A stretch of 14,104 nt of DNA from the IMG/VR virus record IMGVR_UViG_2667527839_000010. One strand, given 5' to 3'. Position 1 is the first letter of the stretch. Each line of letters begins with the position of its first letter. The notes under the pieces are model-generated. The model was not told where the DNA came from, searched no databases, and saw only the letters and a list, made by a program, of their open reading frames with translations. This stretch comes from a virus. Taxonomy: Duplodnaviria; Heunggongvirae; Uroviricota; Caudoviricetes. Shown here piece after piece: positions 1 to 13,116 of the stretch. Both the position numbers and the translations under genes were made by a program.

Positions 1-1263
1 ATGAAACTCAACGCTCGCCAGATAGAGACCGCAAAGCCGAAAGAGAAAGCTTATAAAATGGCTGATGGAGGTGGTTTGTATCTTGAGGTCTCCCCTAAAG
101 GTTCTAAGTACTGGCGCATGAAATATCGCCGCCCCTCTGACAAAAAGGAAGATCGACTCGCTTTTGGTGTATACCCGACGGTCACTTTGGCTGAAGCGCG
201 GGGTAAGCGCGATGCAGCAAAGAAATTGTTGTCTCAGGGTATTGACCCCAAAGCTGAGCAAAAGGGGGCACAAGCTGAAATTGAGGGGGCATATTTATTT
301 GAAACTATCGCAAGGCAATGGCACGCAAGTAACCTTACTTGGAGCGAAGATCATAGCCGTCGTGTTCTGCTGACACTTGAGCAGTATATTTTCCCCTCGA
401 TAGGTCAAATCGATGCCAGAACGTTGAGAACCAGCCAGCTTCTCAATCCAATCAAAGCTGTCGATACGGCGGGTAAACATGATGTCGCGCAGCGACTGAT
501 GCAGCGCGTAACCGCAATTATGCGTTTTGGTGTGCAGAATGACCTGCTTGAATCAAATCCTGCATGCGATATGGCTGGAGCGCTTTTAAGCGTTAAAGCA
601 ACCCACCACCCAGCACTACCCCCAAAAAGAATCCCTGAGCTTCTTGAAAGACTATCACGCTATAAAGGGCGACTAATGACACGGCTTGCCGTTGAATTAA
701 CGCTACTCACATTTATACGTTCAAGTGAGATGCGTTTTGCTCGCTGGAGTGAGGTTAACTTTGAACGAAGCGAGTGGACAATACCCGGAATTCGTAAGCC
801 TATTCCCGGCGTAAAACACTCTGAGCGTGGGATGAAGATGAAAACTGAACATATTGTTCCGCTTAGCAAACAAGCATTTGATATTTTTAAACGTTTACAT
901 GCCTTGAGTGGTAAAGGTGAGGTTATATTTCCCAGCGATCATGATCCTAAAAAAGTAATGAGTGAAAATACAGTAAATAACGCCTTACGTGTAATGGGAT
1001 ATGATACGAAAACTGAAGTATGTGGTCATGGGTTTAGAACTATGGCGCGTGGTGCGCTAAGTGAGTCGAAACTATGGAATGATGATGCCATTGAAAGACA
1101 GTTAAGCCACGTTGAACGAAAAAATGTGAAAGGTTCATATATGCATACTTCCGAATATCTTGAAGAAAGAAGATTAATGCTGCAATGGTGGGCTGATTAT
1201 ATTGATGCTAATAAGAATGGATCTGTCACACCATATGATTTTGCGCGTATGCATGGAAAATAA
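1..1263 (+). CDS. int: Tyrosine recombinase, P4-type integrase (complete, 420 aa)
   Basis: ORF begins at window base 1 with N-terminus MKLNARQIETAKPKEKAYKMADGGGLYLEV typical of P4-family integrases; C-terminal catalytic region has HGFRTMARGAL (HxxR) and a downstream Tyr region (GSYMHTSEY). TAA stop at 1261-1263. Nested ORFs 164-373, 295-480, 660-869 are frame shadows. Confidence 0.9.
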   Translation: MKLNARQIETAKPKEKAYKMADGGGLYLEVSPKGSKYWRMKYRRPSDKKEDRLAFGVYPTVTLAEARGKRDAAKKLLSQGIDPKAEQKGAQAEIEGAYLFETIARQWHASNLTWSEDHSRRVLLTLEQYIFPSIGQIDARTLRTSQLLNPIKAVDTAGKHDVAQRLMQRVTAIMRFGVQNDLLESNPACDMAGALLSVKATHHPALPPKRIPELLERLSRYKGRLMTRLAVELTLLTFIRSSEMRFARWSEVNFERSEWTIPGIRKPIPGVKHSERGMKMKTEHIVPLSKQAFDIFKRLHALSGKGEVIFPSDHDPKKVMSENTVNNALRVMGYDTKTEVCGHGFRTMARGALSESKLWNDDAIERQLSHVERKNVKGSYMHTSEYLEERRLMLQWWADYIDANKNGSVTPYDFARMHGK

Positions 1264-1292
1264 TTACCATTGGGGGCTGCGGAGAGATTTAA

Positions 1293-1931
1293 ATGAATAA
1301 TACTCAATTTGATAATAATTTGTTTTATTTTAATAGGTTAACTTACATAACGCCACACGAAGTGGCGCTTGCTATGAATGGTTTTGACTATGATACCGAA
1401 AATGATGAATTGACTGAGGTTCAATTAAAAGAGGTTATTAGATTAAGAAAGGCAATAACCAGAAATCTACAATTAATTAATGAATATAAAAACGTATCCG
1501 CCACGCAAAAAGTGGAGGCGAACTTATTATTAACTGCCGCTTATATCTTTCAGAGGGAAGGTATTGTACCTGTGGAGATTAAGGAGAGAATTGAGAACGC
1601 ATTACGACAACAGGTAAAAAATAAAGATTGGAGTGATATTCTAATGACGTTAGGAGGAAGTGAATTATATGAAGTTGGTAAAAAATTAAGGAGTAATGGT
1701 AGAGGGCAGTACAGAAAAGATGATGAGGATAATTATAGTTGTAAATTAATTTATTTACTAATTGAATTGCTTAAGAGACATGGAAAGGTAAGTTATAGCG
1801 ATAATAGTGTTATATATAATGATATTGTTTCTTTTTGTAATGAGAATGAGATTCTAATGAAAGGGGTTAAAAAAGCTACGTTTTATAAGAAAATAAAGCT
1901 GGGGAAAGACATTATAAAATACGGAGAGTAA
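1293..1931 (+). CDS. Hypothetical protein (212 aa), AT-rich, no recognisable motif; candidate accessory gene
   Basis: ATG at 1293 preceded by GGAGAG (1281-1286, 6 nt spacing). Strongly AT-rich and Lys/Asn/Ile-rich compared with flanking int and alpA, suggesting separate acquisition. No family assigned from sequence. Confidence 0.55.
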   Translation: MNNTQFDNNLFYFNRLTYITPHEVALAMNGFDYDTENDELTEVQLKEVIRLRKAITRNLQLINEYKNVSATQKVEANLLLTAAYIFQREGIVPVEIKERIENALRQQVKNKDWSDILMTLGGSELYEVGKKLRSNGRGQYRKDDEDNYSCKLIYLLIELLKRHGKVSYSDNSVIYNDIVSFCNENEILMKGVKKATFYKKIKLGKDIIKYGE

Positions 1932-1996
1932 ATTTATTAATTTTCTGGCTATCTCTCAATAGAAGGGCCACAAGAGGCTCTAACGGGCTATAGGGG

Positions 1997-2044
1997 GTAA
2001 TACGATGTAATATGGTGTAATACTGTGCTAATTCCTAGGTAATA
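1997..2044. repeat. Helically phased GTAATA direct repeats (3 copies at exact 10-bp spacing plus a 4th)
   Basis: GTAATA at 1997, 2007, 2017 and 2039 (gtaatacgat / gtaatatggt / gtaatactgt ... gtaatatgaa), in the intergenic region between the AT-rich ORF and alpA. Confidence 0.35.
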
Positions 2045-2307
2045 TGAATCGTTAAAATGCAATAATACCTTTTGACATATGATTTTTTGATTTTCCATCC
2101 TATCCATATGAATTCTATTGATTTTATTTTTTTTGTGCATTTCCTTCTCTCCGTGTTCTTTCATATGAATATTACTTCTTTTTTCAGTGGAGATTATTGT
2201 TTTTCAATAGAATCAATATTTGTCTTAATAGATTCCATTATCACTAGAATCACTTTTTCCCAGTGTTTAAAGTCACCGTGAACTTAAGTAGAACACGGAG
2301 TAACAAG

Positions 2308-2538
2308 ATGGAATATGCAAACAGCTTTTCAGATAATCAGACTCTTATCTCAGCAAAAGAGGTCTTAAGACGCGTTCAGCGTAGCAAGGCATGGCTTTAC
2401 AAACAGCTTGCAAACAATACATTTCCCCGTCCGGTGAAAATAGGAACTCGTGCAATTTCATTTGTTGAAAGCGAAGTTGATCACTGGATTCAAGAGCAAA
2501 TATATGCCTCTCGTGGTGAGCGATATGAAAATCACTAA
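2308..2538 (+). CDS. alpA: AlpA/Vis-family small DNA-binding regulator (excisionase-like), 76 aa
   Basis: MEYANSFSDNQTLISAKEVLRRVQRSKAWLYKQLANNTFPRPVKIGTRAISFVESEVDHWIQEQI matches the AlpA/Vis HTH pattern. ATG 2308 preceded by ACGGAG (2295-2300). The ORF track start at 2263 lacks an RBS and lies in AT-rich promoter DNA. Confidence 0.8.
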   Translation: MEYANSFSDNQTLISAKEVLRRVQRSKAWLYKQLANNTFPRPVKIGTRAISFVESEVDHWIQEQIYASRGERYENH

Positions 2539-3852: not shown

Positions 3853-4232
3853 ACCAGCCGCAGGTTTCCATTTTCCCGGCAGAAATGACCACCGCGCTTT
3901 ACCGGCGGGCTATTGCTTCAGCATGGCGGCAGAAAATGCTGAACGAAACTGGCAGTGATCAGTATGGTCCTCACAGCCTGACGGTGGAGCGTATTGAAAT
4001 GGCCATTGCGCTGCATATCGAGTGCGTACTGATTAACGAGTACGGCGAAGCACAGGGCGCCGCTGCCGCGCTGGCACTGCTGACTGACATGCTGGAGCCG
4101 TCACTGCTGACCGCGCCGCCGGTACTGACCGCGCGCGGCTGTGAAGTGATGGCGGAGATGTACCGCACGCTTCCGGCGGCCTTTGATGACTTCTGCAGTA
4201 CCGGTGTGACGTTGTATCAGGGGGAAGTATGA
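3849..4232 (+). CDS. Hypothetical protein (127 aa), early operon immediately upstream of the primase
   Basis: ATG 3849 preceded by AGGAGG; stop overlaps the primase start (ATGA at 4229-4232). Confidence 0.65.
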   Translation: MNQPQVSIFPAEMTTALYRRAIASAWRQKMLNETGSDQYGPHSLTVERIEMAIALHIECVLINEYGEAQGAAAALALLTDMLEPSLLTAPPVLTARGCEVMAEMYRTLPAAFDDFCSTGVTLYQGEV

Positions 4233-6901
4233 CAATACAGACGGTTACGCAGATTTCAGCTGCCGCACGGGGGAAATGGCCCGTTATTCTCCAGATGCTG
4301 CGTATTGATGTACCTGAAAACGGCAGGCACGGTCCCTGCCCGAAATGTGGGGGCAAGGATCGTTTTCGCCTTGATGACCTTGACGGGCGCGGGACGTGGA
4401 TCTGCAGCCAGTGTGGCAATGGTGACGGTCTGGATCTGGTTAAGCTCGTAACCGGTTACAGCGTCAGAAAGGCTGCGCAGGAGGTGGCGCAGGTGCTTAA
4501 TGTGCCGGATGTGCAGGAACTGCCTGTTAAGCCTGCCAGACAAAAAGCCCCTAAACGCGACATGGGGCTTACCGTGGCGGCGCTGATGAAAGAGAGCCAC
4601 ACGGGAGAAAGCGCCTATCTGACAGGAAAAGGGTTCGCCGGATACCCGGCCTCTCTGACCGGAAGCGTGCAGCATATCAGCGGTAAGGATTTTCCTGCCG
4701 GTTCCCTGCTGTTACCACTCACGACCAACACCGGAGCCGTGACTGGTGCACAGCTTATCGCCCCGACGGGTGAAAAAAGCATACTGCCCGGCAGCACGAT
4801 GAAAGGCGCGTTTGTGTCGCTCAGCCCGTTACCGTCTGAACCACCGGTACAGGTGGTGATTACCGAAGGTTACGCTACGGCGCTGACGGTAAGTCAGCTC
4901 ACTGCCGGATGCGTAGTGGCTGCCATATCTGCGGGCAACCTGCCCAATGTGGCGCAGTCGCTGCGGGCACGCTGGCCTGAGGTAAAAATTATCATCGCCG
5001 GTGATAACGATTTTCAGGACGGAGGTGAGAATCCCGGCAGAGCCTTTGCTGAACGGGCGGCAAAAGCTGTTGGCGGCTGGATGACGCTGCCACCGGGAGA
5101 GATTAAGGCCGACTGGAATGACTTCCATCGGGAGCACGGTATTACCCGCGCCCGTGAAGCCTTTCGTAACGGTCTGGTGCTGTGCGGGGAGGGCCGCACG
5201 CAACTGCCGCACGGGTTCCGTCTTACCCAGGAATATCTCTGGTATGAAAAGCAGGTACAGCGCAACGGTGAGACGGAGATCCAGAACGTCAAAATATGCA
5301 GCCCGCTGCGCGTGACGGCAATCACCTGCGATGCCGATGGCGGTAACTTCGGACGACTGCTGGAATGGGAAGATACGTGGGGTGAGTGTCGCCGCTGGGC
5401 GATGCCGATGGAAATGCTGAGCGGCAGTGGTGAGGAACTGCGCCGGGTACTGCTGGTTAACGGGCTGTCTTATATCAGCACCACCGGTGAGGCACGCGCA
5501 CGCCTGATGGAATATATCTCACTGTGTAAACCGGAACGCCGCGTGACCTGCGTCAGTCGTACTGGCTGGCATGGTCAGGTTTACGTCCTGCAGGATGAGG
5601 TCAGCGGTGAAGGTGCAGAGGGTGTCATTCTCCAGACCACTTCCGTGCAGGGGCGTGATTTCCGCGTGTCGGGCACAACAGAGGAATGGCGGGAGCATGT
5701 ATCCCGCTACTGTACCGGCAACTCCCGCGTGGCATTTGCTGTCAGCCTGGCCTTTGCTGCACCACTGTTACGGCTGGTTGGTATGGACGGCGGCGGCTAC
5801 CACCTCAAAGGGGAATCGACAGACGGTAAGACCACCACCATGAAAGCAGCAACCTCCGTCTGCGGCGGGCCTGACTACTGGCAGACATGGCGGGCCACCG
5901 GCAACGCGCTGGAGGGATGCGCCAGCCGCCGCAACGATGCCGCCATGATGCTTGATGAGATCCGGGAAGTTGACGGACGCGAGGCAGGCAATATCGCCTA
6001 CATGCTGGCAAACGGTCAGGGCAAGGGCCGTGCCGGTACGGACGGTGAGCTGCGTACCCGTAAGCAGTGGCGCCTGTTGTTCTTTTCAACTGGCGAGTTG
6101 TCTCTGACCGAACATGCGGCAAAGGCCGGTGAGCGTACTTTTGCCGGGATGGAAGTCAGGATGATCCAGATCCCCAGCGATTCCGGGAAGTTTGGCGTTT
6201 TTGAGGAGCTGCACGGCTTCGACAGCGGCAAGGCTCTGGCAGAGCATCTTGAATGGGCCACGTCCTGCTACTACGGTTCGCCGTTCCGGGAGTGGCTGAA
6301 AGCACTGACCGCTGATCTTAACGGACTAACGGCACAGGCAAAATCGCTGATGAAGGAATATGCTGCCGCCCTGACTCCGAAAGATGCAGGCAATCAGGTG
6401 GGCCGGGCTGTGAACCGCTTTGCTCTGGTGGCGATGGCAGGTGAACTGGCAACCCGTCTGGGTATCACCGGCTGGCCTGAGGGTGAAGCACTGCGGGCAA
6501 CCCGCGTCTGCCTGAACGCATGGCTGAAAGATCGCGGGCACACCGCCAATCAGGAAGATATCGCCGCACTGGAGCAGGTTCGCAGTTTCTTTACCGCGAA
6601 TCAGTACAGCCGCTTTGCAGACTGGTATGACGAGCGCAACCGCCCCGGCAATATGGTGGGCTGGCGCAGGGTGGAGAAAGGCAGTACCGCGCAGGGCACG
6701 GAAGCTGTCACTACGTTCTATGTCATGCCGTCCGGCTGGAAAGAAATCTGCAGGGGATTTGACCCGCGCAAGGTGGCGCGTCTGTGCGCAGATCGTGGAT
6801 ACCTGCTGCCCTCCACTGATGGCAAACTCCAGACAACCATTCGCCCGCCAGAGATGAATCCCCGCAGGCTCTATGTCTTCAACAGCGAGGTGCCGGGTTA
6901 A
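4229..6901 (+). CDS. Replication primase-helicase, P4 alpha-like (zinc ribbon + TOPRIM + Walker A/B NTPase), 890 aa
   Basis: N-terminal CPKCGGKDRF...WICSQCG (CxxC..CxxC); TOPRIM-like VVITEGYATALTV and IIIAGDNDFQDGG; Walker A HLKGESTDGKTTTM and Walker B-like MMLDEIREV. Uniform coding-like composition over 2.7 kb; internal antisense ORFs are shadows. Confidence 0.9.
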   Translation: MTIQTVTQISAAARGKWPVILQMLRIDVPENGRHGPCPKCGGKDRFRLDDLDGRGTWICSQCGNGDGLDLVKLVTGYSVRKAAQEVAQVLNVPDVQELPVKPARQKAPKRDMGLTVAALMKESHTGESAYLTGKGFAGYPASLTGSVQHISGKDFPAGSLLLPLTTNTGAVTGAQLIAPTGEKSILPGSTMKGAFVSLSPLPSEPPVQVVITEGYATALTVSQLTAGCVVAAISAGNLPNVAQSLRARWPEVKIIIAGDNDFQDGGENPGRAFAERAAKAVGGWMTLPPGEIKADWNDFHREHGITRAREAFRNGLVLCGEGRTQLPHGFRLTQEYLWYEKQVQRNGETEIQNVKICSPLRVTAITCDADGGNFGRLLEWEDTWGECRRWAMPMEMLSGSGEELRRVLLVNGLSYISTTGEARARLMEYISLCKPERRVTCVSRTGWHGQVYVLQDEVSGEGAEGVILQTTSVQGRDFRVSGTTEEWREHVSRYCTGNSRVAFAVSLAFAAPLLRLVGMDGGGYHLKGESTDGKTTTMKAATSVCGGPDYWQTWRATGNALEGCASRRNDAAMMLDEIREVDGREAGNIAYMLANGQGKGRAGTDGELRTRKQWRLLFFSTGELSLTEHAAKAGERTFAGMEVRMIQIPSDSGKFGVFEELHGFDSGKALAEHLEWATSCYYGSPFREWLKALTADLNGLTAQAKSLMKEYAAALTPKDAGNQVGRAVNRFALVAMAGELATRLGITGWPEGEALRATRVCLNAWLKDRGHTANQEDIAALEQVRSFFTANQYSRFADWYDERNRPGNMVGWRRVEKGSTAQGTEAVTTFYVMPSGWKEICRGFDPRKVARLCADRGYLLPSTDGKLQTTIRPPEMNPRRLYVFNSEVPG

Positions 6902-7301: not shown

Positions 7302-8045
7302 ATGAACAACACCGCAGTGAATAACAACCTTTCCACTTTTCCGGCTGTAACGCAGCGGGCACTGGAAACCATGAACACAGCCAGAAACGCATGGCTTGAA
7401 GCACGTCGTCAGCAGAAAGCGGCAGCGGATAATATTGCGACAATCCGCCAGCGTCGCGCTGAAATGGAAGCCACGACGAACACACTGAATGAGGAGTGGC
7501 GCACGCTGTTTCGTGAAAGTCAGGGCGTGGTCTCAAAGGAAATGAAAAAACTGCGCACGGAAATTGCGCTGGGACGAGAAACGCTTGAGGATTTTGATGA
7601 GCTGCTGGCGGCTCAGGAAAGCGAAAATGCACTTTTGCCGCAGAAAGCTGCAGAATTAGCCGGAAAGTATATCCACGCGCATAACATTCTTGTGGATATT
7701 CGCGCAAAACAAATCTGGGAGGATTTTATGCAGTCGCATGGAAAAGCGCTTATTCAGACGCTGAGCCTGCTTAAATCCACAATGGGCCGGGAAGCCAGTG
7801 CCGTTGTGGGTGTGGTGAATTCAGTTAATGACCCGGACACAGTGCTGAAAGACTTTATTCATAAACATATCACCAGACCGGCTCTGGCTAACGATGCGAT
7901 GCCTGAGCAGGACCCGGTGTTTAAACTGGCGGGAGTTGCCCCGGATTATGCGGCGCGTCTGGATTTCAGTAATCAACTCTCTCCGGCAGCTATGCATAAA
8001 ATTAAGGTTCGTCAGGAACTTGCTGAGAAGGAGAAAGCAGTATGA
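7302..8045 (+). CDS. sid: Sid-like (P4 external scaffold / size-determination family), 247 aa
   Basis: ATG 7302 with AGGAG at 7292-7296. Size close to P4 Sid; shares N-terminal and central motifs with the Psu-like gene that follows (NAWLEARRQQKAA..., EDFMQSHGKALIQTL), consistent with the Sid/Psu paralogy. Family assignment is from remembered motifs and context, not alignment. Confidence 0.55.
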   Translation: MNNTAVNNNLSTFPAVTQRALETMNTARNAWLEARRQQKAAADNIATIRQRRAEMEATTNTLNEEWRTLFRESQGVVSKEMKKLRTEIALGRETLEDFDELLAAQESENALLPQKAAELAGKYIHAHNILVDIRAKQIWEDFMQSHGKALIQTLSLLKSTMGREASAVVGVVNSVNDPDTVLKDFIHKHITRPALANDAMPEQDPVFKLAGVAPDYAARLDFSNQLSPAAMHKIKVRQELAEKEKAV

Positions 8046-8593
8046 CGGCCCGAGGCACGCCTGACCAGGCACTTACCAGTTTTCGGAATGCCCGTATTCT
8101 GTGGGCCGGACATAATGAGAGCCGAAAAGCCATTGAACAACAGATAACATCTCTCCTCGCTGCCACAGAAAAACCAGCAGATTATGCCCGACAGCTCGAA
8201 TTACTGCGGGAACGTCTGGATGTGCTGAAATGGCAAATTAACTGTGCTGCGCGCGAATGCATTTACTCGCAGCATTTACTGATGGAGGCCTGCACAGAAG
8301 CCGCTCTCAGCAATTTTATGCAGGCGAATGGGGCAGCCCTGACATCTGCACTGGCTCCGTTCCTGAAGGGGCGCGGAGGGGTTGACGTTGCGTCCCGTAT
8401 ATTACGCAGTGCTCTGGTTCGCCAGCTGGCAATAACACCGCCTGAAATTGCCGGGGATTATCGTGAGATCCTGGATGAATCCGGTTTGATGCCTGACCCC
8501 GGGATGATTCGTGATTGCCAGGGTTCTTACACCCCGGCACAACATCTGCGTTTTCAGCAACGCCTGAATGACATTAACGATATACAGGAGTGA
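8042..8593 (+). CDS. psu: Psu-like (polarity suppression / capsid decoration family), 183 aa
   Basis: Start overlaps the Sid-like stop (ATGA at 8042-8045). Motifs LELLRERLDVLKWQINCAARECIYS, FMQANGAALTSALAP and YTPAQHLRFQQR resemble P4 Psu as I recall it. Confidence 0.6.
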   Translation: MTARGTPDQALTSFRNARILWAGHNESRKAIEQQITSLLAATEKPADYARQLELLRERLDVLKWQINCAARECIYSQHLLMEACTEAALSNFMQANGAALTSALAPFLKGRGGVDVASRILRSALVRQLAITPPEIAGDYREILDESGLMPDPGMIRDCQGSYTPAQHLRFQQRLNDINDIQE

Positions 8594-8598
8594 TATTA

Positions 8599-8871
8599 AT
8601 GGCACTTAAATGTCCGGAATGCGGTACAGTTGCACACGCCAGAACAGCAGCCTATGAAGCTCCGTCAGTTAAACGCTCGTGGTATCAGTGCCAGAATCTG
8701 GAATGTTCCTGCACATTTACGGCACTGGAGAGTGTGGATAAGATAATCATGAAACCCCGGCGCAATGAACAGCTATCAGACAAAGCACAATCCCCGGAAA
8801 AACAACAGAAAACGCTCAATCGCTATGGCTCCGCGTCAAAACTGTCAAGCCGTCAGCAGATTCCTGTCTGA
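8599..8871 (+). CDS. ogr: Ogr/Delta-family zinc-finger late transcription activator, 90 aa
   Basis: MALKCPECGTVAHARTAAYEAPSVKRSWYQCQNLECSCTF has the CxxC-N22-CxxC arrangement and HART/YQCQN signature of P2 Ogr / P4 Delta. ATG 8599 with AGGAG (8586-8590); the track GTG at 8590 overlaps the Psu-like stop. Confidence 0.85.
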   Translation: MALKCPECGTVAHARTAAYEAPSVKRSWYQCQNLECSCTFTALESVDKIIMKPRRNEQLSDKAQSPEKQQKTLNRYGSASKLSSRQQIPV

Positions 8872-9100: not shown

Positions 9101-9278
9101 TAACGGTGATAATTGTGATGTTGCGATATCAAGAGAGATATAAGAATGCTGTATTCAATAAGGTATTGCTTTCAATTGTTAGATTTATTTTTGTTTAAAT
9201 GTCAATGGTTTAGGTGGTTGCTGGCAGCCAGTACGCTTACTTATTGAAAATCTCGCATCTTTTGCTATCCTAACCCTA

Positions 9279-9479
9279 CCTTTACGCGCGGGATAACAGG
9301 TTTATCCTTGTCGGGCGTTTCGCCAGACACTAATTTATTGTGGACATTTAGGGTTGCGCTTTAGCACTTTCAGCAAGATCCTTCATGCCACTGCGTTCCA
9401 TTCAGGATCTTGCTGAAAGTCTAAAGCGCATCCTTTAGGTAAAGGGGTCGAAGGTGGCTGGTTAGCCACCTTTTCTTTT
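9279..9479 (+). ncRNA. Candidate retron msr-msd non-coding RNA (boundaries tentative)
   Basis: Structured leader upstream of the effector-RT operon. Possible promoter: TTGAAA (9244-9249), 16 bp, TGcTATCCT (9263-9271). Short hairpins ggataa-caggt-ttatcc (9291-9307) and gggcg-ttt-cgcc. Long hairpin with arms 9356-9382 and 9404-9429 (26/27 bp complementary, one bulge, 21-nt loop) as candidate msd. Possible short a1/a2 pair cctttac (9279-9285) / gtaaagg (9439-9445), only 7 bp. No covariance model was run. Confidence 0.4.
9453..9479 (+). terminator. Intrinsic-terminator-like hairpin between the ncRNA region and the effector gene (possible attenuator)
   Basis: 7-bp stem ggtggct (9453-9459) / agccacc (9464-9470), 4-nt loop, then TTTTCTTTT (9471-9479); the effector SD (GGAG 9481-9484) and start (9499) follow directly. 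Confidence 0.5.
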
Positions 9480-9498
9480 GGAGTAGGGGGTCACAAGG

Positions 9499-10485
9499 GT
9501 GAGTGATTCTGCATATATGAATGCATTACAAGAGCAGTTTGGAGATTTGAAATATTCAAATTTCACTGTTCAGTTCATGCCTCCTATTATTTTTGTTTGT
9601 GGTGGGCCGATAAATTCCACTCCAATGAGTGTACGAGACCACATATTTACTTATGTAGCAGGCCACAAACCTGAATTGTCAGATTCTCTTATTTTAGCTG
9701 AGAACTTCCATGACTACTTCAGAGAGGGGGCATATTCAGATCTAATGAGCTTTGAAGATGATATTGCAAATATTTCAACATTAGTTGTTATCTGTTTAGA
9801 AAGTGCAGGTTCGTTAGTTGAGCTTGGATTATTTGTTAATAGGAAGTCTCTAGCTCAAAAATTGCATGTAGTCGCACCATTTGAGGAGATTGAGGGAAAT
9901 GAACGAAAAAATATTCCTGCTAGATCTTCTTTTATATATTTAGGCCCTTTGGAGTATCTTAAAAAAATAGATGAGGCCTCAGTATCAGTTTATCCATGGC
10001 CAAAATCGGATCGTATGAAATATGATGAGGTTGAGCTTATCTACCATGATATTCATTCTAGATTAAAACGTGTAAAAAAAACGGAGCGATATAACCCTGA
10101 AAATACTGGGCACCTAGCTATATTGATTTACGAAATAATCCTTTTATCAGAACCAATCAAGAAAAGCGAAATAGAGTGGGCACTATACTGTATGGATATA
10201 GATGTGCCACAAAAAATAATATCTCGTTTACTTTATTTGCTTGAAAAGATGAAATTAACCTCATCATTATCTTACAGTGGTACAGACTACTTTTATTCCC
10301 GAGGGCATAGAGAGAGTAAACTTAAATTTGGTATCAGTGCTAGTGGTAAAATAAAGGATTCTATGAATATTAAGGTTGCAATCCGACAATCTTACTTAAG
10401 TATGGATGCTAAAGATATGGACGAGACTGCAAAAAAAAGGAAAAATGCTCTAAATCAAATCAATATCGTGCGTGGAGGGGCTTAG
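9499..10485 (+). CDS. Retron effector: nucleoside 2-deoxyribosyltransferase-like (NDT-like) domain protein with a C-terminal putative DNA-binding region, 328 aa
   Basis: N-terminal PIIFVCGGP and STLVVICLESAGSLVELGLFV fit the NDT fold (Rossmann-like strand, then a conserved Glu in a VELG context); C-terminal half is a separate, helix-rich region. GTG start at 9499 with GGAG/AGGGGG upstream; alternative ATG at 9517. Stop TAG 10483-10485 abuts the RT start. Confidence 0.8.
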   Translation: MSDSAYMNALQEQFGDLKYSNFTVQFMPPIIFVCGGPINSTPMSVRDHIFTYVAGHKPELSDSLILAENFHDYFREGAYSDLMSFEDDIANISTLVVICLESAGSLVELGLFVNRKSLAQKLHVVAPFEEIEGNERKNIPARSSFIYLGPLEYLKKIDEASVSVYPWPKSDRMKYDEVELIYHDIHSRLKRVKKTERYNPENTGHLAILIYEIILLSEPIKKSEIEWALYCMDIDVPQKIISRLLYLLEKMKLTSSLSYSGTDYFYSRGHRESKLKFGISASGKIKDSMNIKVAIRQSYLSMDAKDMDETAKKRKNALNQINIVRGGA

Positions 10486-10486
10486 A

Positions 10487-11419
10487 ATGGAGTTGCTAAG
10501 TTATATTTCAAAAGGTCTTTTTCTTAGCGAAGAAGAGGCTAAAAGGTATATTGTTACTATTCCACGCAGATATAAAATTTATCCTATCGCCAAAAGAAAT
10601 GGTAATGGATATAGATTAATTGCACAACCAGCTAGGCAAGTTAAAGCCTTACAGAAGGTAGTAATCAATCATATGTTGGCTAATTTGAAAGTTCATGAAA
10701 ATGCTTTCGCTTATGAAGCCGATAAAAGTATTAGATCTAATGCGTTAATGCATTGTAATAATGATTATTTGCTTAAAATGGATTTTAAAAACTTTTTTAT
10801 GAGTATCAAACCCCATAATCTTTTATCTGTCTTAAAAGATTATGGCGTTGAACTAACTGATACTGATATCTTTGTTCTTAAAAATCTTTTCTTCTGGAAG
10901 TTAAGAAGAAATAGCCCATTACGCCTAAGTGTTGGAGCACCTTCTTCTCCCATTATTTCAAATGCAGTAATGTATTTCTTCGATGAGGAAATATCGAAAA
11001 GATGCAAGGATTTGGATATTACCTACTCAAGGTATGCTGATGATCTTACGTTTAGCACCAAAGTCAAAGGAGCTTTATTTGATGTTCCTAAGTTAGTAAG
11101 GGAAGTTCTTAACGTAGTAAATCTTAGGAATATTAAAATAAACCATGAGAAAACAGTTTTTACCTCAAGGAAGTTTAATAGACATGTAACTGGTGTAACT
11201 ATTACGACTGATGGTTATTTGTCTTTAGGTCGTGATAGAAAGCGTCTTTTAAGAAGTAAAATACATTATTACGTGTGTGGGGTTTTATCTGAGAAAGAAA
11301 TTCTAACCCTTAAAGGAGAATTAGGCTATGCGAAATTTATTGAACATAAATTCTTTACCTCCATGATTAAGAAATATGGGGATGATGTAATCAGCGAAAT
11401 TTCAAAATATGAAATTTAA
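10487..11419 (+). CDS. ret: Retron-type reverse transcriptase, 310 aa from ATG 10487 (315 aa if GTG 10472)
   Basis: Retron RT motifs: YRLIAQPARQVKALQKVV; LLKMDFKNFFMSI (cf. DxxxFFPSI); SVGAPSSPIISNAVMYFFD (cf. QGAPTSP); YSRYADDLTFS (YADD); NHEKT; VTGVTIT (retron-specific VTG). GGAGG at 10474-10478 precedes ATG 10487. AT-rich composition matches the effector gene. Confidence 0.9.
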   Translation: MELLSYISKGLFLSEEEAKRYIVTIPRRYKIYPIAKRNGNGYRLIAQPARQVKALQKVVINHMLANLKVHENAFAYEADKSIRSNALMHCNNDYLLKMDFKNFFMSIKPHNLLSVLKDYGVELTDTDIFVLKNLFFWKLRRNSPLRLSVGAPSSPIISNAVMYFFDEEISKRCKDLDITYSRYADDLTFSTKVKGALFDVPKLVREVLNVVNLRNIKINHEKTVFTSRKFNRHVTGVTITTDGYLSLGRDRKRLLRSKIHYYVCGVLSEKEILTLKGELGYAKFIEHKFFTSMIKKYGDDVISEISKYEI

Positions 11420-11664
11420 TAGCTTGTTGTCCTAATAAATCAGCATGACTTTATCTAGCTTGCGCAAGGTTGGTTCAGAGGTTTGGTTGTTCTGGTTAGG
11501 CTCTGTAAGACGGAACCTAACTAGGCAACTCTATCTTGCTAATTCATTTATTGTGCTAGTTAGCAACAATAAGATTTTGTTGGGGGCACAAAATGGGGCA
11601 CAAGTCATAAGCTATAAAATTTTTATCATCATGTTCAATGAGTTATATAGTTATTCTATTCCGG

Positions 11665-11696
11665 CCTTCGCACCTTCGCACCTTCGCACCTTCGCA
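11665..11696. repeat. Perfect tandem repeat (CCTTCGCA)x4 within a tRNA-Leu 3'-end-like sequence (putative degenerate attR)
   Basis: ccttcgca at 11665-11672, 11673-11680, 11681-11688, 11689-11696, preceded by ttctattccgg and followed by ccatcgg. The context TTCtAtTCCGGCCTTCG-CACC...A resembles the 3' end of E. coli tRNA-Leu(CAA) leuX (..TTCGAGTCCGGCCTTCGGCACCA) as I remember it. Confidence 0.85.
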
Positions 11697-11712
11697 CCAT
11701 CGGAACATCAAT

Positions 11713-12465: not shown

Positions 12466-13116
12466 ATGAATAAACTCCCCGATCATCTTCCTCGGCGGTA
12501 TATCATCAAAGCTATTCATTTATGGGATGCGGGAGAAACTCATCAGTTCCAGCCTGCACGGTTGTATGAGATTGAATATCATGGCCGACGTTACCCCTCG
12601 AAGGCGATTGCTGGTATCGCAGCGACATTGATGACGGGGACGCAATTTACCCCTGCGGATTTCACCGGCGGAATAAAATCTAAATGCGTCAAGCTACTTA
12701 TAGATCAGGGATTTCATATTCATCAGGATAAAGCCGCTGCGGCTCCCATAGCCGATGTTCTGTTCCCGGATGAGTTGCCGTCGCAGGGGACCTACGTTGA
12801 AGGTGCGGCGATAAAGGTGACGGTAAACCGCTATGAACGCGATAAAAAAGCTCGCGAGAAAGCAGTCGAACATCACGGATGCCAGTGCAACGTATGCGGC
12901 GTTGATCTGGTGAAGATCTATGGCGATATCGCTGAGGGTTTTATCCATATGCATCACCTGGTGCCGCTTTCAGCCATTAAAGAGGATTACCAGCTGGATC
13001 CAGTTAATGATTTACTTCCTGTGTGCCCTAATTGCCATGCGATGCTGCACCGGCGCAAACCACCGTTTACGCCGGAGGAGTTAAAAGCGCTGATGGATGC
13101 GAATAAATCAAATTAA
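12466..13116 (+). CDS. HNH endonuclease family protein (McrA-like C-terminal HNH nuclease with an N-terminal putative DNA-recognition domain), 216 aa
   Basis: C-terminal CQCNVCGVDL...FIHMHHLVPLS...DPVNDLLPVCPNCHAML matches the HNH zinc-finger nuclease motif. ATG 12466 with AAGGA (12453-12457). Confidence 0.8.
   Translation: MNKLPDHLPRRYIIKAIHLWDAGETHQFQPARLYEIEYHGRRYPSKAIAGIAATLMTGTQFTPADFTGGIKSKCVKLLIDQGFHIHQDKAAAAPIADVLFPDELPSQGTYVEGAAIKVTVNRYERDKKAREKAVEHHGCQCNVCGVDLVKIYGDIAEGFIHMHHLVPLSAIKEDYQLDPVNDLLPVCPNCHAMLHRRKPPFTPEELKALMDANKSN

What the first reader, a model, noticed from the sequence alone, without database searches (positions are those of the whole stretch)
1293..1931. AT-rich orphan gene between integrase and alpA
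Seen: a 212-aa ORF with a good RBS and composition very different from the flanking int and alpA, and no motif I can recognise. Inference: a second, small cargo position (cf. the variable gene between intA and alpA in CP4-57-like elements, from memory); candidates include a single-gene defence or anti-defence function. The function is unknown.
Basis: inference. Interest (0 to 1): 0.45.

Follow-up and report, generated by a model that had tools for sequence, protein, structure and literature searches.

The report
Integrase-coupled orphan gene of phage satellites
The AT-rich 212-codon gene is a real, selected gene of a small uncharacterised family that always sits directly behind the integrase of phage satellites, so it is more likely a helper of satellite excision or integration than a swappable defence gene.

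Summary
Window 1293-1931 (+) is a 212-aa ORF with a GGAGAG Shine-Dalgarno 6 nt upstream and 31% GC. It is under purifying selection (dN/dS 0.05-0.16). It has no Pfam, NCBIfam, PADLOC or PDB relative.

The window is a P4-like satellite at tRNA-Leu (leuX). Its order is int, ORF212, alpA, primase, sid/psu/delta, retron.

The "second cargo slot" reading is only partly right. In 5,426 complete E. coli genomes the gene and this int allele each occur in 205. In about 30 independent contexts (P4-like, PICI and capsid-forming PICI satellites, three integrase clades) family members always lie immediately after int and before alpA. In several lineages the start codon overlaps the int stop codon. The family is never seen as free cargo.

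Other integration modules carry unrelated genes in the same slot. This matches the "int-overlapping/int-contiguous gene" (iolg/icg) class described for Vibrio PICMI satellites, where iolg is needed for excision.

My best reading, by inference, is a constitutively co-expressed accessory of the Int/AlpA excision-integration switch. The confident AF2 model (pLDDT 90.5) has no known fold relative. The protein diverges much faster than Int or AlpA. Function is unproven. Interest is moderate to low.

The parts
1..1263 (+). P4-type tyrosine integrase (Arm-DNA-bind_3 + Phage_int_M + Phage_integrase). It is 72% identical to phage P4 Int and specific for leuX.
   Evidence: Pfam. tblastn to P4 int. The tRNA-Leu and the P4 att core lie just upstream in L001.
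1281..1286 (+). Shine-Dalgarno GGAGAG, 6 nt before the ORF212 ATG. Only 29 nt separate the int stop from the ORF212 start, and no terminator-like site lies between them.
   Evidence: Sequence. Terminator scan found none in 900-2700.
1293..1931 (+). ORF212 (WP_001066505.1), the int-contiguous gene. It is an all-alpha protein with an acidic N-terminal half and a basic C-terminal half. Conserved motifs are TPxEVALAxxG, AAYxF...TP, GRGxxRKxDE, KLIxLLIxLL and KSTFYxK.
1932..2307 (.). AT-rich spacer carrying two repeat arrays. One is GTAATA-type units with a 10-bp period at 1994-2047. The other is TCAATAGAA-type units at 1956, 2113 (-) and 2204, with variants at 2223 and 2241, just upstream of alpA. 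These are candidate protein-binding sites of unknown partner.
   Evidence: Comparable arrays occur at the same place in L005, L007, L008, L019, L014, L017 and L012.
2308..2538 (+). AlpA/Vis-family HTH protein. It is the satellite activator and/or excisionase.
   Evidence: Pfam PF05930, E 1e-11. Roles of AlpA come from PMC6092414 and PMC10803314.
2635..2820 (-). YlcI/YnfO-family small protein. It is the last gene of the exchanged integration block, which ends near 2947.
   Evidence: Annotation in L001.

Best explanation
ORF212 is the 'int-contiguous gene' of the satellite's integration zone. It is the enterobacterial counterpart, by position and gene arrangement, of the iolg/icg genes described in Vibrio PICMI satellites.

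**Shown here:**
- It is a genuine gene under purifying selection.
- It belongs to a small family restricted to phage satellites.
- Family members always lie immediately downstream of, and co-oriented with, a P4-type tyrosine integrase and upstream of alpA. In several lineages the start codon overlaps the int stop codon.

**Inferred:**
- It is transcribed with int in the integrated state, and in many relatives its translation is coupled to int.
- Its two-part all-alpha protein (acidic N-terminal half, basic C-terminal half with the conserved exposed GRGxxRK loop and a KSTFYxK helix) works with Int and AlpA in the excision/integration switch.
- Its role would be as an accessory, architectural or specificity factor, rather than as a mobile defence cargo.
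- Its rapid divergence relative to Int and AlpA suggests that it contacts a fast-changing partner, either DNA sites or a helper or host protein.
For: **Synteny.** The order int, X, alpA is seen in all of these:
- the window;
- the eight GTDB loci, where int directly precedes X in all eight and alpA follows in the four intact loci whose DNA extends that far;
- a capsid-forming PICI and a 12-kb circular PICI-like element;
- loci from distant representatives at 23-45% identity;
- 21 of 21 informative metagenome and IMG/VR loci.

**Coupling to int.** The X start overlaps the int stop by 1 or 4 nt in L012, L013, L017 and L022. Gaps are 2-8 nt in L014 and L019 and 29 nt in the window.

**Linkage in E. 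coli.** Both int and ORF212 are found in 205 of 5,426 genomes.

**Breadth.** The family spans three integrase clades that are only 25-30% identical to one another. It was not found in any other genomic context, apart from one marginal hit.

**Selection.** dN/dS is 0.05-0.16.

**Charge pattern.** Median pI is 6.2 for the N-terminal half and 9.1 for the C-terminal half across the family.

**Experimental precedent.** In PICMI115 the gene overlapping int by ATGA (iolg) is required, with int and alpA, for helper-induced excision. PICMIs carry 13 unrelated iolg/icg families in this slot (PMC10803314).
Against: - No homology to any PICMI iolg could be tested, because the sequences are not held.
- The ORF212-family HMM hits none of the 618 ORFs in 16 fis-att satellite loci. 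The int-overlapping genes there belong to another superfamily.
- Phage P4 (Int 72% identical) and canonical P4-like elements at leuX lack any ORF212 homologue. They place the defence hotspot directly after int. The protein is therefore not an obligatory cofactor of this integrase clade.
- X does not co-evolve tightly with Int. Int can be 97% identical while X is 65% identical, with a sharp identity break at the int stop codon. The reverse also occurs, with Int at 63% and X at 72%.
- Three E. coli genomes carry IS1 inside the gene, and one Apirhabdus copy is frameshifted beside an intact int.
- In PICMI115 the iolg deletion was complemented with int plus iolg together, not with iolg alone.
- No significant HTH or other DNA-binding match was found.
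Confidence: 0.45

Rival explanations
1. Lysogeny-expressed cargo. On this view ORF212 is a single-gene anti-phage, anti-defence or superinfection-exclusion function that rides on the constitutive int transcript.
For: - GC is lower than int in all nine lineages compared.
- It is the fastest-diverging member of the int-X-alpA trio. One pair shows int 71%, alpA 87% and X 31%.
- The slot holds unrelated families in different elements.
- In canonical P4 the genes right after int are defence cargo, namely gop-beta-cII or a kinase-kinase-phosphatase module.
- IS1 insertions are tolerated.
Against: - There is no PADLOC hit.
- The family never occurs outside the int-adjacent slot.
- There is no presence/absence polymorphism with conserved flanks. 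It is 205/205 in E. coli.
- The stop/start overlaps with int persist across deep divergence.
- It is a small all-alpha protein with no enzymatic or sensor domain.
- This element already carries its defence cargo, a retron, in the standard hotspot.
Confidence: 0.2
2. Transcription regulator or helper sensor of the satellite. On this view the basic C-terminal half binds the repeat arrays in the spacer upstream of alpA and sets the threshold for alpA induction. It would be functionally comparable to the divergent Stl repressors of SaPIs, and its fast evolution would track different helper phages.
For: - The C-terminal half is basic and carries a KSTFYxK helix resembling HTH recognition helices.
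- Scattered sub-threshold HTH hits occur among members: HTH_Tnp_Mu_2, Phage_AlpA, HTH_20 and SpoIIID.
- Conserved repeat arrays lie between X and alpA in many lineages.
- No C4/CI-type immunity RNA was found in the window by Rfam.
- X diverges faster than its neighbours.
Against: - None of the HTH matches is significant.
- The repeat type (TCAATAGAAT versus TTGATGGAAT) does not track X similarity. L014 X is 45% identical to the window's X yet carries the other motif.
- In PICMI115, loss of the positional analogue abolishes excision rather than derepressing it.
Confidence: 0.2
3. The gene is functionally dispensable and is retained only by linkage to int, with no role in the satellite life cycle.
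For: IS1-disrupted and frameshifted copies exist. This copy of the satellite has a degenerate attR and may no longer excise.
Against: dN/dS is 0.05-0.16 and the 206-241-aa frame is conserved across about 20 divergent lineages. The covariation in the alignment was sufficient for a pLDDT 90.5 model.
Confidence: 0.05

Closest known systems
iolg/icg (integrase-overlapping or integrase-contiguous genes) of Vibrionaceae PICMI satellites (Barcia-Cruz et al., Nat Commun 2024, PMC10803314)
   Same: - Same place and orientation, between int and alpA and co-directional with int.
- Same stop/start overlaps in relatives (ATGA and 1-nt overlaps), or a short gap.
- Many mutually unrelated families of unknown function occupy the slot.
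- The host elements are small phage satellites with int, alpA and a primase.
   Different: - No sequence relation could be shown or tested.
- The host elements here are enterobacterial P4-like, PICI and cf-PICI satellites rather than PICMIs.
- The excision requirement was shown only for PICMI115 iolg, and not with iolg alone in trans.
The 274-320-aa int-adjacent proteins of other E. coli satellite integration modules (thrW and argW elements) and of fis-att satellites
   Same: They occupy the same slot and strand, directly after int, in satellites whose replication module is 97-98% identical to this window's.
   Different: They form a separate superfamily. hhalign between the thrW and argW families gives 96.6% probability. 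They share an N-terminal domain of about 45 aa with the int-overlapping genes at fis, at E 1e-11 and 1e-8. There is no detectable similarity to ORF212, either whole or by halves.
Phage P4 cII (sce7726 family), the first gene after P4 int
   Same: It is the first co-oriented gene downstream of a 72%-identical leuX integrase.
   Different: It is unrelated in sequence. From my own knowledge of Rousset et al. 2022, cII belongs to the gop-beta-cII unit in the int-psu defence hotspot. It is followed by convergent cargo, not by alpA.
Recombination directionality factors and excisionases (lambda Xis, P4 Vis, AlpA, TorI)
   Same: They are encoded next to int, are very diverse and fast-evolving, and act with Int in excision.
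   Different: RDFs are typically small (under about 120 aa), basic, winged-helix proteins. ORF212 is 212 aa, near-neutral overall, all-alpha and without a significant HTH_17 or AlpA match. The element already encodes AlpA.
YfjH of E. coli K-12 CP4-57
   Same: It lies between intA and alpA.
   Different: It is on the opposite strand, is 318 aa long and shows no similarity.

Membership tests
iolg/icg class of satellite integration zones (PICMI paper) | The gene lies between int and alpA on the same strand as int. | tested here: met
   Window 1-1263, 1293-1931 and 2308-2538, all on the + strand. The same order is seen in about 30 loci.
iolg/icg class of satellite integration zones (PICMI paper) | The start overlaps the int stop (iolg) or is contiguous with it (icg). 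| tested here: met
   The window has a 29-nt gap, which is the icg type. Relatives overlap by 1 nt (L012, L022) or 4 nt (L013, L017), or have gaps of 2-8 nt.
iolg/icg class of satellite integration zones (PICMI paper) | The gene is required for helper-induced excision. | not testable with these tools
   Shown only for PICMI115 iolg by deletion and int/iolg complementation.
iolg/icg class of satellite integration zones (PICMI paper) | Sequence homology to one of the 13 PICMI iolg/icg families. | tested here: inconclusive
   The PICMI protein sequences are not in the paper's held files. The ORF212-family HMM found nothing in 16 fis-att satellite loci from IMG/VR.
P4/P2 defence-hotspot cargo (Rousset et al. 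2022; PMC13586616) | Rapid swapping: elements with near-identical core genes carry different genes at the locus. | tested here: not met
   In E. coli, int and ORF212 each occur in 205 genomes, and 204 carry the whole block. Elements sharing the replication module differ by the whole int-X-alpA-ylcI block, not by X alone.
P4/P2 defence-hotspot cargo (Rousset et al. 2022; PMC13586616) | Match to a known or candidate defence protein model. | tested here: not met
   PADLOC gives 0 families at E up to 1. In the same window the retron proteins hit at E 1e-87 and 1e-120.
P4/P2 defence-hotspot cargo (Rousset et al. 2022; PMC13586616) | Homologues also occur in other mobile elements or chromosomal defence contexts. 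| tested here: not met
   All contexts are int-adjacent in satellites. The only exception is a marginal hit (P0063, E 2.8e-4).
Excisionase/RDF (HTH_17, Phage_AlpA, Xis) | A small basic winged-helix DNA-binding protein that matches these profiles. | tested here: not met
sce7726 family (P4 cII) | Match to NCBIfam NF033832. | tested here: not met
   P4 cII matches at E 2.5e-44. ORF212 does not match. hhalign probability is 0.1%.
Superfamily of 234-320-aa int-adjacent proteins (thrW, argW and fis modules) | Shared N-terminal domain of about 45 aa (YxSLExAAxLLGCxxxDLxHxAxIG). | tested here: not met
   hhalign of A2 against A3 and A4 gives probability below 1%. Comparison of the N-terminal sub-alignments gives probability 0.4%.

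The most novel reading that the evidence does not exclude
The ORF212 family is a new-fold, rapidly diversifying specificity module of satellite integration zones. Its conserved basic loop and C-terminal helices would dock on DNA or on Int/AlpA. Its variable surface would read a helper-phage or host cue. On this reading it decides when, or for which helper, the satellite excises. That would be a protein-level analogue of SaPI Stl diversification, and a missing component in how Gram-negative PICI and P4-like satellites sense their helpers.
Probability: 0.12. Interest if true: 0.7.

Novelty: new member of a known kind. Interest (0 to 1): 0.35.

Why it matters
How Gram-negative satellites (PICIs, P4-like elements, PICMIs) assemble their excision complex and sense their helper is still open. 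The only experimental hint that a third, int-coupled protein is involved comes from one Vibrio PICMI.

This work shows that enterobacterial satellites of three types carry a conserved but fast-evolving family in the same slot, often with its start codon overlapping the int stop codon. That suggests the int-X-alpA trio is a general unit of satellite integration zones. It also gives a tractable E. coli candidate, WP_001066505.1, to test.

There is a practical point as well. Genes in this slot should not be counted as defence cargo simply because they are AT-rich orphans next to an integrase.

Tried and rejected
1. **Profile libraries.** Pfam, NCBIfam and PADLOC gave nothing. PHROGs gave only an unannotated family.
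2. **PDB sequence searches.** I searched with the full-length profile and the C-terminal profile. The best hits were ING5 at E 0.015 and a designed protein at E 0.54, which I treat as chance.
3. **Structure searches.**
   - The first AF2 model was poor (pLDDT 64), and Foldseek against the PDB found nothing.
   - Foldseek against BFVD found nothing at E below 1.
   - afdb50 was unavailable.
4. **Homology to other slot proteins.** I tested a visual impression that ORF212 shares motifs with the other slot proteins, namely an N-terminal 'S/TxxExAxxLxG' and a C-terminal 'LLxxLIxxL ... G-I-x-x-G-x-K-T-F-x-K'. Whole-profile hhalign, half-domain hhalign and an HMM search with shuffled controls all scored at background level.
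5. **YfjH and P4 cII as relatives.** Both were rejected.
6. **Tight Int-X co-evolution.** Only a weak correlation was found (Spearman 0.48), and a clear recombination break lies at the int stop codon.
7. **Repeat motifs upstream of alpA as ORF212 operators.** The motif type does not follow X similarity.
8. **Direct comparison with PICMI115 IOLG.** The sequences are not in the held supplements.
9. **An intact attR core.** None was found in the window.

Full report
**What the window is**

The 14.1-kb window is a P4-like phage satellite.
- Its genes, in order:
  - a tyrosine integrase (1-1263)
  - ORF212 (1293-1931)
  - an AlpA-family gene (2308-2538)
  - a YlcI/YnfO gene on the minus strand
  - an Icd-like gene
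  - three small genes including DUF5375
  - a zinc-ribbon/Toprim/DUF927 primase (4229-6901)
  - Sid-like, Psu and Ogr/Delta genes (7302-8871)
  - a type II-A (St85-family) retron with its msr/msd RNA (9278-11419)
- An identical copy lies in E. coli strain 81, directly after tRNA-Leu (leuX). The 20-bp P4 att core forms the 3' end of that tRNA.
- The integrase is 72% identical to phage P4 Int.
- The gene order differs from canonical P4. Here int is followed by alpA and the replication genes, and the sid-psu-delta genes and the defence hotspot come last. This layout resembles the 'integration zone first' organisation described for Gram-negative PICIs (PMC10111431).

Yes.
- The ORF is at the stated coordinates, with GGAGAG 6 nt upstream of the ATG, only 29 nt after the int stop codon, and no terminator-like site between them.
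- It is 30.8% GC, against 44.5% for int. The last third of int and the spacer before alpA are also AT-rich.
- Orthologues from Enterobacter, Pseudocitrobacter, Izhakiella, Klebsiella indica and other genera keep the 212-codon frame. Within clades dN/dS is 0.05-0.16.
- It is therefore a translated gene under selection, not a chance ORF.

**What family is it?**

It is small and uncharacterised.
- A word-indexed search of 5.8 billion proteins found 23 clusters, all named 'hypothetical protein' or unnamed.
- An exhaustive profile search of 1.84 billion cluster representatives found only 41 hits, about 20 of them full length (206-241 aa).
- There is no hit in Pfam, NCBIfam or PADLOC. PHROGs has it only as the unannotated phrog_30524.
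- With 37 sequences, AlphaFold2 gives a confident all-alpha model (pLDDT 90.5; pTM 0.62, suggesting two loosely coupled halves).
- Across the family the N-terminal half is acidic to neutral (median pI 6.2) and the C-terminal half is basic (median pI 9.1).
- The best conserved motifs are TPxEVALAxxG, AAYxF...TP, the loop GRGxxRKxDE between two long helices, KLIxLLIxLL, SxIYxDI and KSTFYxK.
- I regard the C-terminal half as a plausible nucleic-acid-binding or partner-binding unit. No HTH match is significant.

**Where does the family occur?**

This is the most informative result.
- In every context I could recover, the gene lies immediately downstream of, and co-oriented with, a P4-type integrase. 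In almost all of them it lies upstream of alpA. The contexts are:
  - the leuX P4-like elements;
  - a metagenomic satellite with a 45%-identical protein;
  - the capsid-forming PICI deposited as 'phage vB_KppS-Ant' (27% identity);
  - a 12-kb circular PICI-like element (32% identity);
  - elements next to yicC and at leuX, with proteins about 26% and 35% identical to ORF212 (P0045 and P0026);
  - 21 of 21 informative metagenome and IMG/VR loci.
- The start codon overlaps the int stop codon by 4 nt (L013, L017) or 1 nt (L012, L022). Otherwise it follows after 2-98 nt.
- The family accompanies three integrase clades that are only 25-30% identical to one another.
- The only non-int context belongs to a marginal hit (E 2.8e-4).
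- In 5,426 complete E. coli genomes, ORF212, this int allele and the whole int-ORF-alpA block are found in 205, 205 and 204 genomes.

**Is the slot 'variable cargo'?**

Between elements yes, but not in the way defence hotspots are.
- The replication module of this satellite (from about position 2947 onward) occurs in 333 E. coli genomes. About 130 of them carry a different integration block at thrW or argW.
- Those blocks also have a gene directly after int (274 and 293 aa). The two are homologous to each other (hhalign probability 96.6%, E 5e-10) but not to ORF212.
- Their N-terminal 45 residues recur in genes that overlap int by ATGA in satellites integrated at the fis site (E 1e-11 and 1e-8). 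Two fis-site satellites have no gene in the slot.
- Phage P4 and canonical P4-like elements at leuX, whose int alleles are about 68% identical at the DNA level, have no ORF212 homologue. In them the defence hotspot follows int directly, holding gop-beta-cII or a kinase-kinase-phosphatase module.
- So the slot is filled by different families in different integration modules, and the module moves as a unit.
- ORF212 is not seen to come and go by itself, and it does not appear elsewhere in genomes. Defence systems of P4 and P2 typically do both (PMC13586616).

**Evolutionary behaviour**

- ORF212 diverges much faster than its neighbours.
- Among leuX elements Int is 97-98% identical while ORF212 is 65% and AlpA about 82%. 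Nucleotide identity drops from about 95% to about 62% exactly at the int stop codon.
- Other pairs show Int 71%, AlpA 87% and X 31%. The reverse also occurs, with Int 63% and X 72%.
- Int and AlpA co-vary strongly (Spearman 0.77). X co-varies weakly with either (0.48 and 0.41).
- Hence recombination shuffles X alleles relative to int. X is conserved in fold and place but not in surface.
- Three E. coli genomes have IS1 inside the gene, and an Apirhabdus copy is frameshifted next to an intact int. The gene is therefore dispensable for the host.

**Link to published work**

- Barcia-Cruz et al. (PMC10803314) described exactly this arrangement in Vibrionaceae PICMI satellites.
- Between int and alpA there is a gene overlapping int (iolg; ATGA is the commonest overlap) or contiguous with it (icg).
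- Those genes fall into 13 unrelated families of unknown function.
- In PICMI115, deleting iolg abolishes helper-induced excision, packaging and transfer, as deleting int or alpA does.
- The authors propose that Int, IOLG and phage-induced AlpA form the excision complex.
- The iolg deletion was complemented with int plus iolg together, so the evidence is good but not airtight.
- I found no paper in the searchable library that mentions ORF212 (WP_001066505.1), and no other paper on genes of this slot.

**Most likely function**

Taking these results together, I judge ORF212 to be the int-contiguous gene of this satellite's integration zone.
- It would be expressed with int in the integrated state.
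- It would act with Int and AlpA in the excision/integration switch, as an accessory, architectural or specificity factor. My confidence is about 0.45.
- The steps shown are gene reality, family restriction to satellites, invariant adjacency and frequent overlap with int, linkage in E. coli, and the absence of defence-family features.
- The steps inferred are co-transcription, any physical interaction, and the role in recombination.
- The rivals are a lysogeny-expressed defence or anti-defence gene (0.2), a regulator or helper sensor acting on the alpA control region (0.2), and a dispensable passenger (0.05).
- The absence of the family from P4 itself, and its loose co-evolution with Int, are the main reasons not to be more confident.

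**Verdict**

- The 'small cargo/defence' interpretation is only partly supported.
- The gene is best filed as a new, enterobacterial family within the positional class of int-overlapping/int-contiguous satellite genes. That class is itself barely understood.
- It would be worth a deletion-and-complementation experiment, but it is not a striking anomaly.

Noticed in passing
window 11660-11705: The right attachment site looks degenerate. The sequence is TCCGGCCTTCGCACC followed by three extra TTCGCACC units and then A. The P4/leuX core is GAGTCCGGCCTTCGGCACCA. No intact core occurs anywhere in the window at up to 4 mismatches. This copy of the satellite may no longer excise precisely. The HNH gene (12466-13116) and the esterase gene lie outside the element.
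   Followed up: partly
window 1932-2307; also L005, L007, L008, L019, L014, L017 and L012 at the same place: There are two conserved repeat arrays between the slot gene and alpA. The first is a set of 10-bp-period units just after the slot gene (GTAATA-type here, GCTCTATAA-type or CATTCAACAG-type elsewhere). The second is 3-4 units at 20-21-bp spacing just upstream of alpA (TCAATAGAAT-type or TTGATGGAAT-type). The motif type follows neither X nor AlpA similarity. The binding partner is unknown. It could be a helper activator, the primase or AlpA.
   Followed up: partly
window 9278-11419: A complete St85-family (type II-A) retron. It comprises msr (9278-9344, below the Rfam gathering score), an STnc400 match covering the msd region (9349-9485), a nucleoside deoxyribosyltransferase-like effector (9499-10485) and the reverse transcriptase (10472-11419). 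It sits in the satellite's defence hotspot after delta.
   Followed up: partly
window about 1200-1263 and about 2947: Two sharp mosaic boundaries. Identity to the Izhakiella, Klebsiella indica and Apirhabdus elements falls from about 95% to about 60% at the int stop codon. E. coli satellites with other integration modules become 97-98% identical from about 2947 onward, just before the icd-like gene.
   Followed up: yes
E. coli records NZ_AP021890.1, NZ_CM168000.1 and NZ_CP058355.1 (hits H31, H54, H59); L009 6001-6635: IS1 is inserted inside ORF212 in three complete E. coli genomes. The Apirhabdus apintestini copy is frameshifted although the adjacent int is intact.
   Followed up: no
L002 3483-4307, L003 3481-4362, L056 11155-11955 (-), L060 1532-2236: A second, larger superfamily of int-adjacent or int-overlapping proteins (234-320 aa). 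It has a shared N-terminal domain of about 45 aa (YxSLExAAxLLGCxxxDLxHxAxIG, reminiscent of excisionase-type HTH) and a strongly conserved C-terminal module in the argW-type branch (AEHHAxNRExLLKAAIYILSKYPxECRGERKEISPEKW). It too is uncharacterised.
   Followed up: partly
window 7302-8871 relative to 4229-6901: The gene order is sid-like, psu, delta. These genes are co-directional with the primase operon and placed after it. Canonical P4 has sid-delta-psu, divergent from the alpha operon. The element combines a PICI-like integration-zone-first layout with P4 capsid-size and late-control genes.
   Followed up: no
L001 18229-20031 versus window 4229-6901: The otherwise identical copy in E. coli strain 81 has a primase gene of 1803 nt, against 2673 nt in the window. 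This is an internal deletion of about 870 nt.
   Followed up: no
window 751-1263: The 3' third of int is much more AT-rich (0.34-0.40) than its 5' part (0.48). It is nevertheless 93-100% conserved across genera, so the low GC is not a sign of recent foreign origin there.
   Followed up: no
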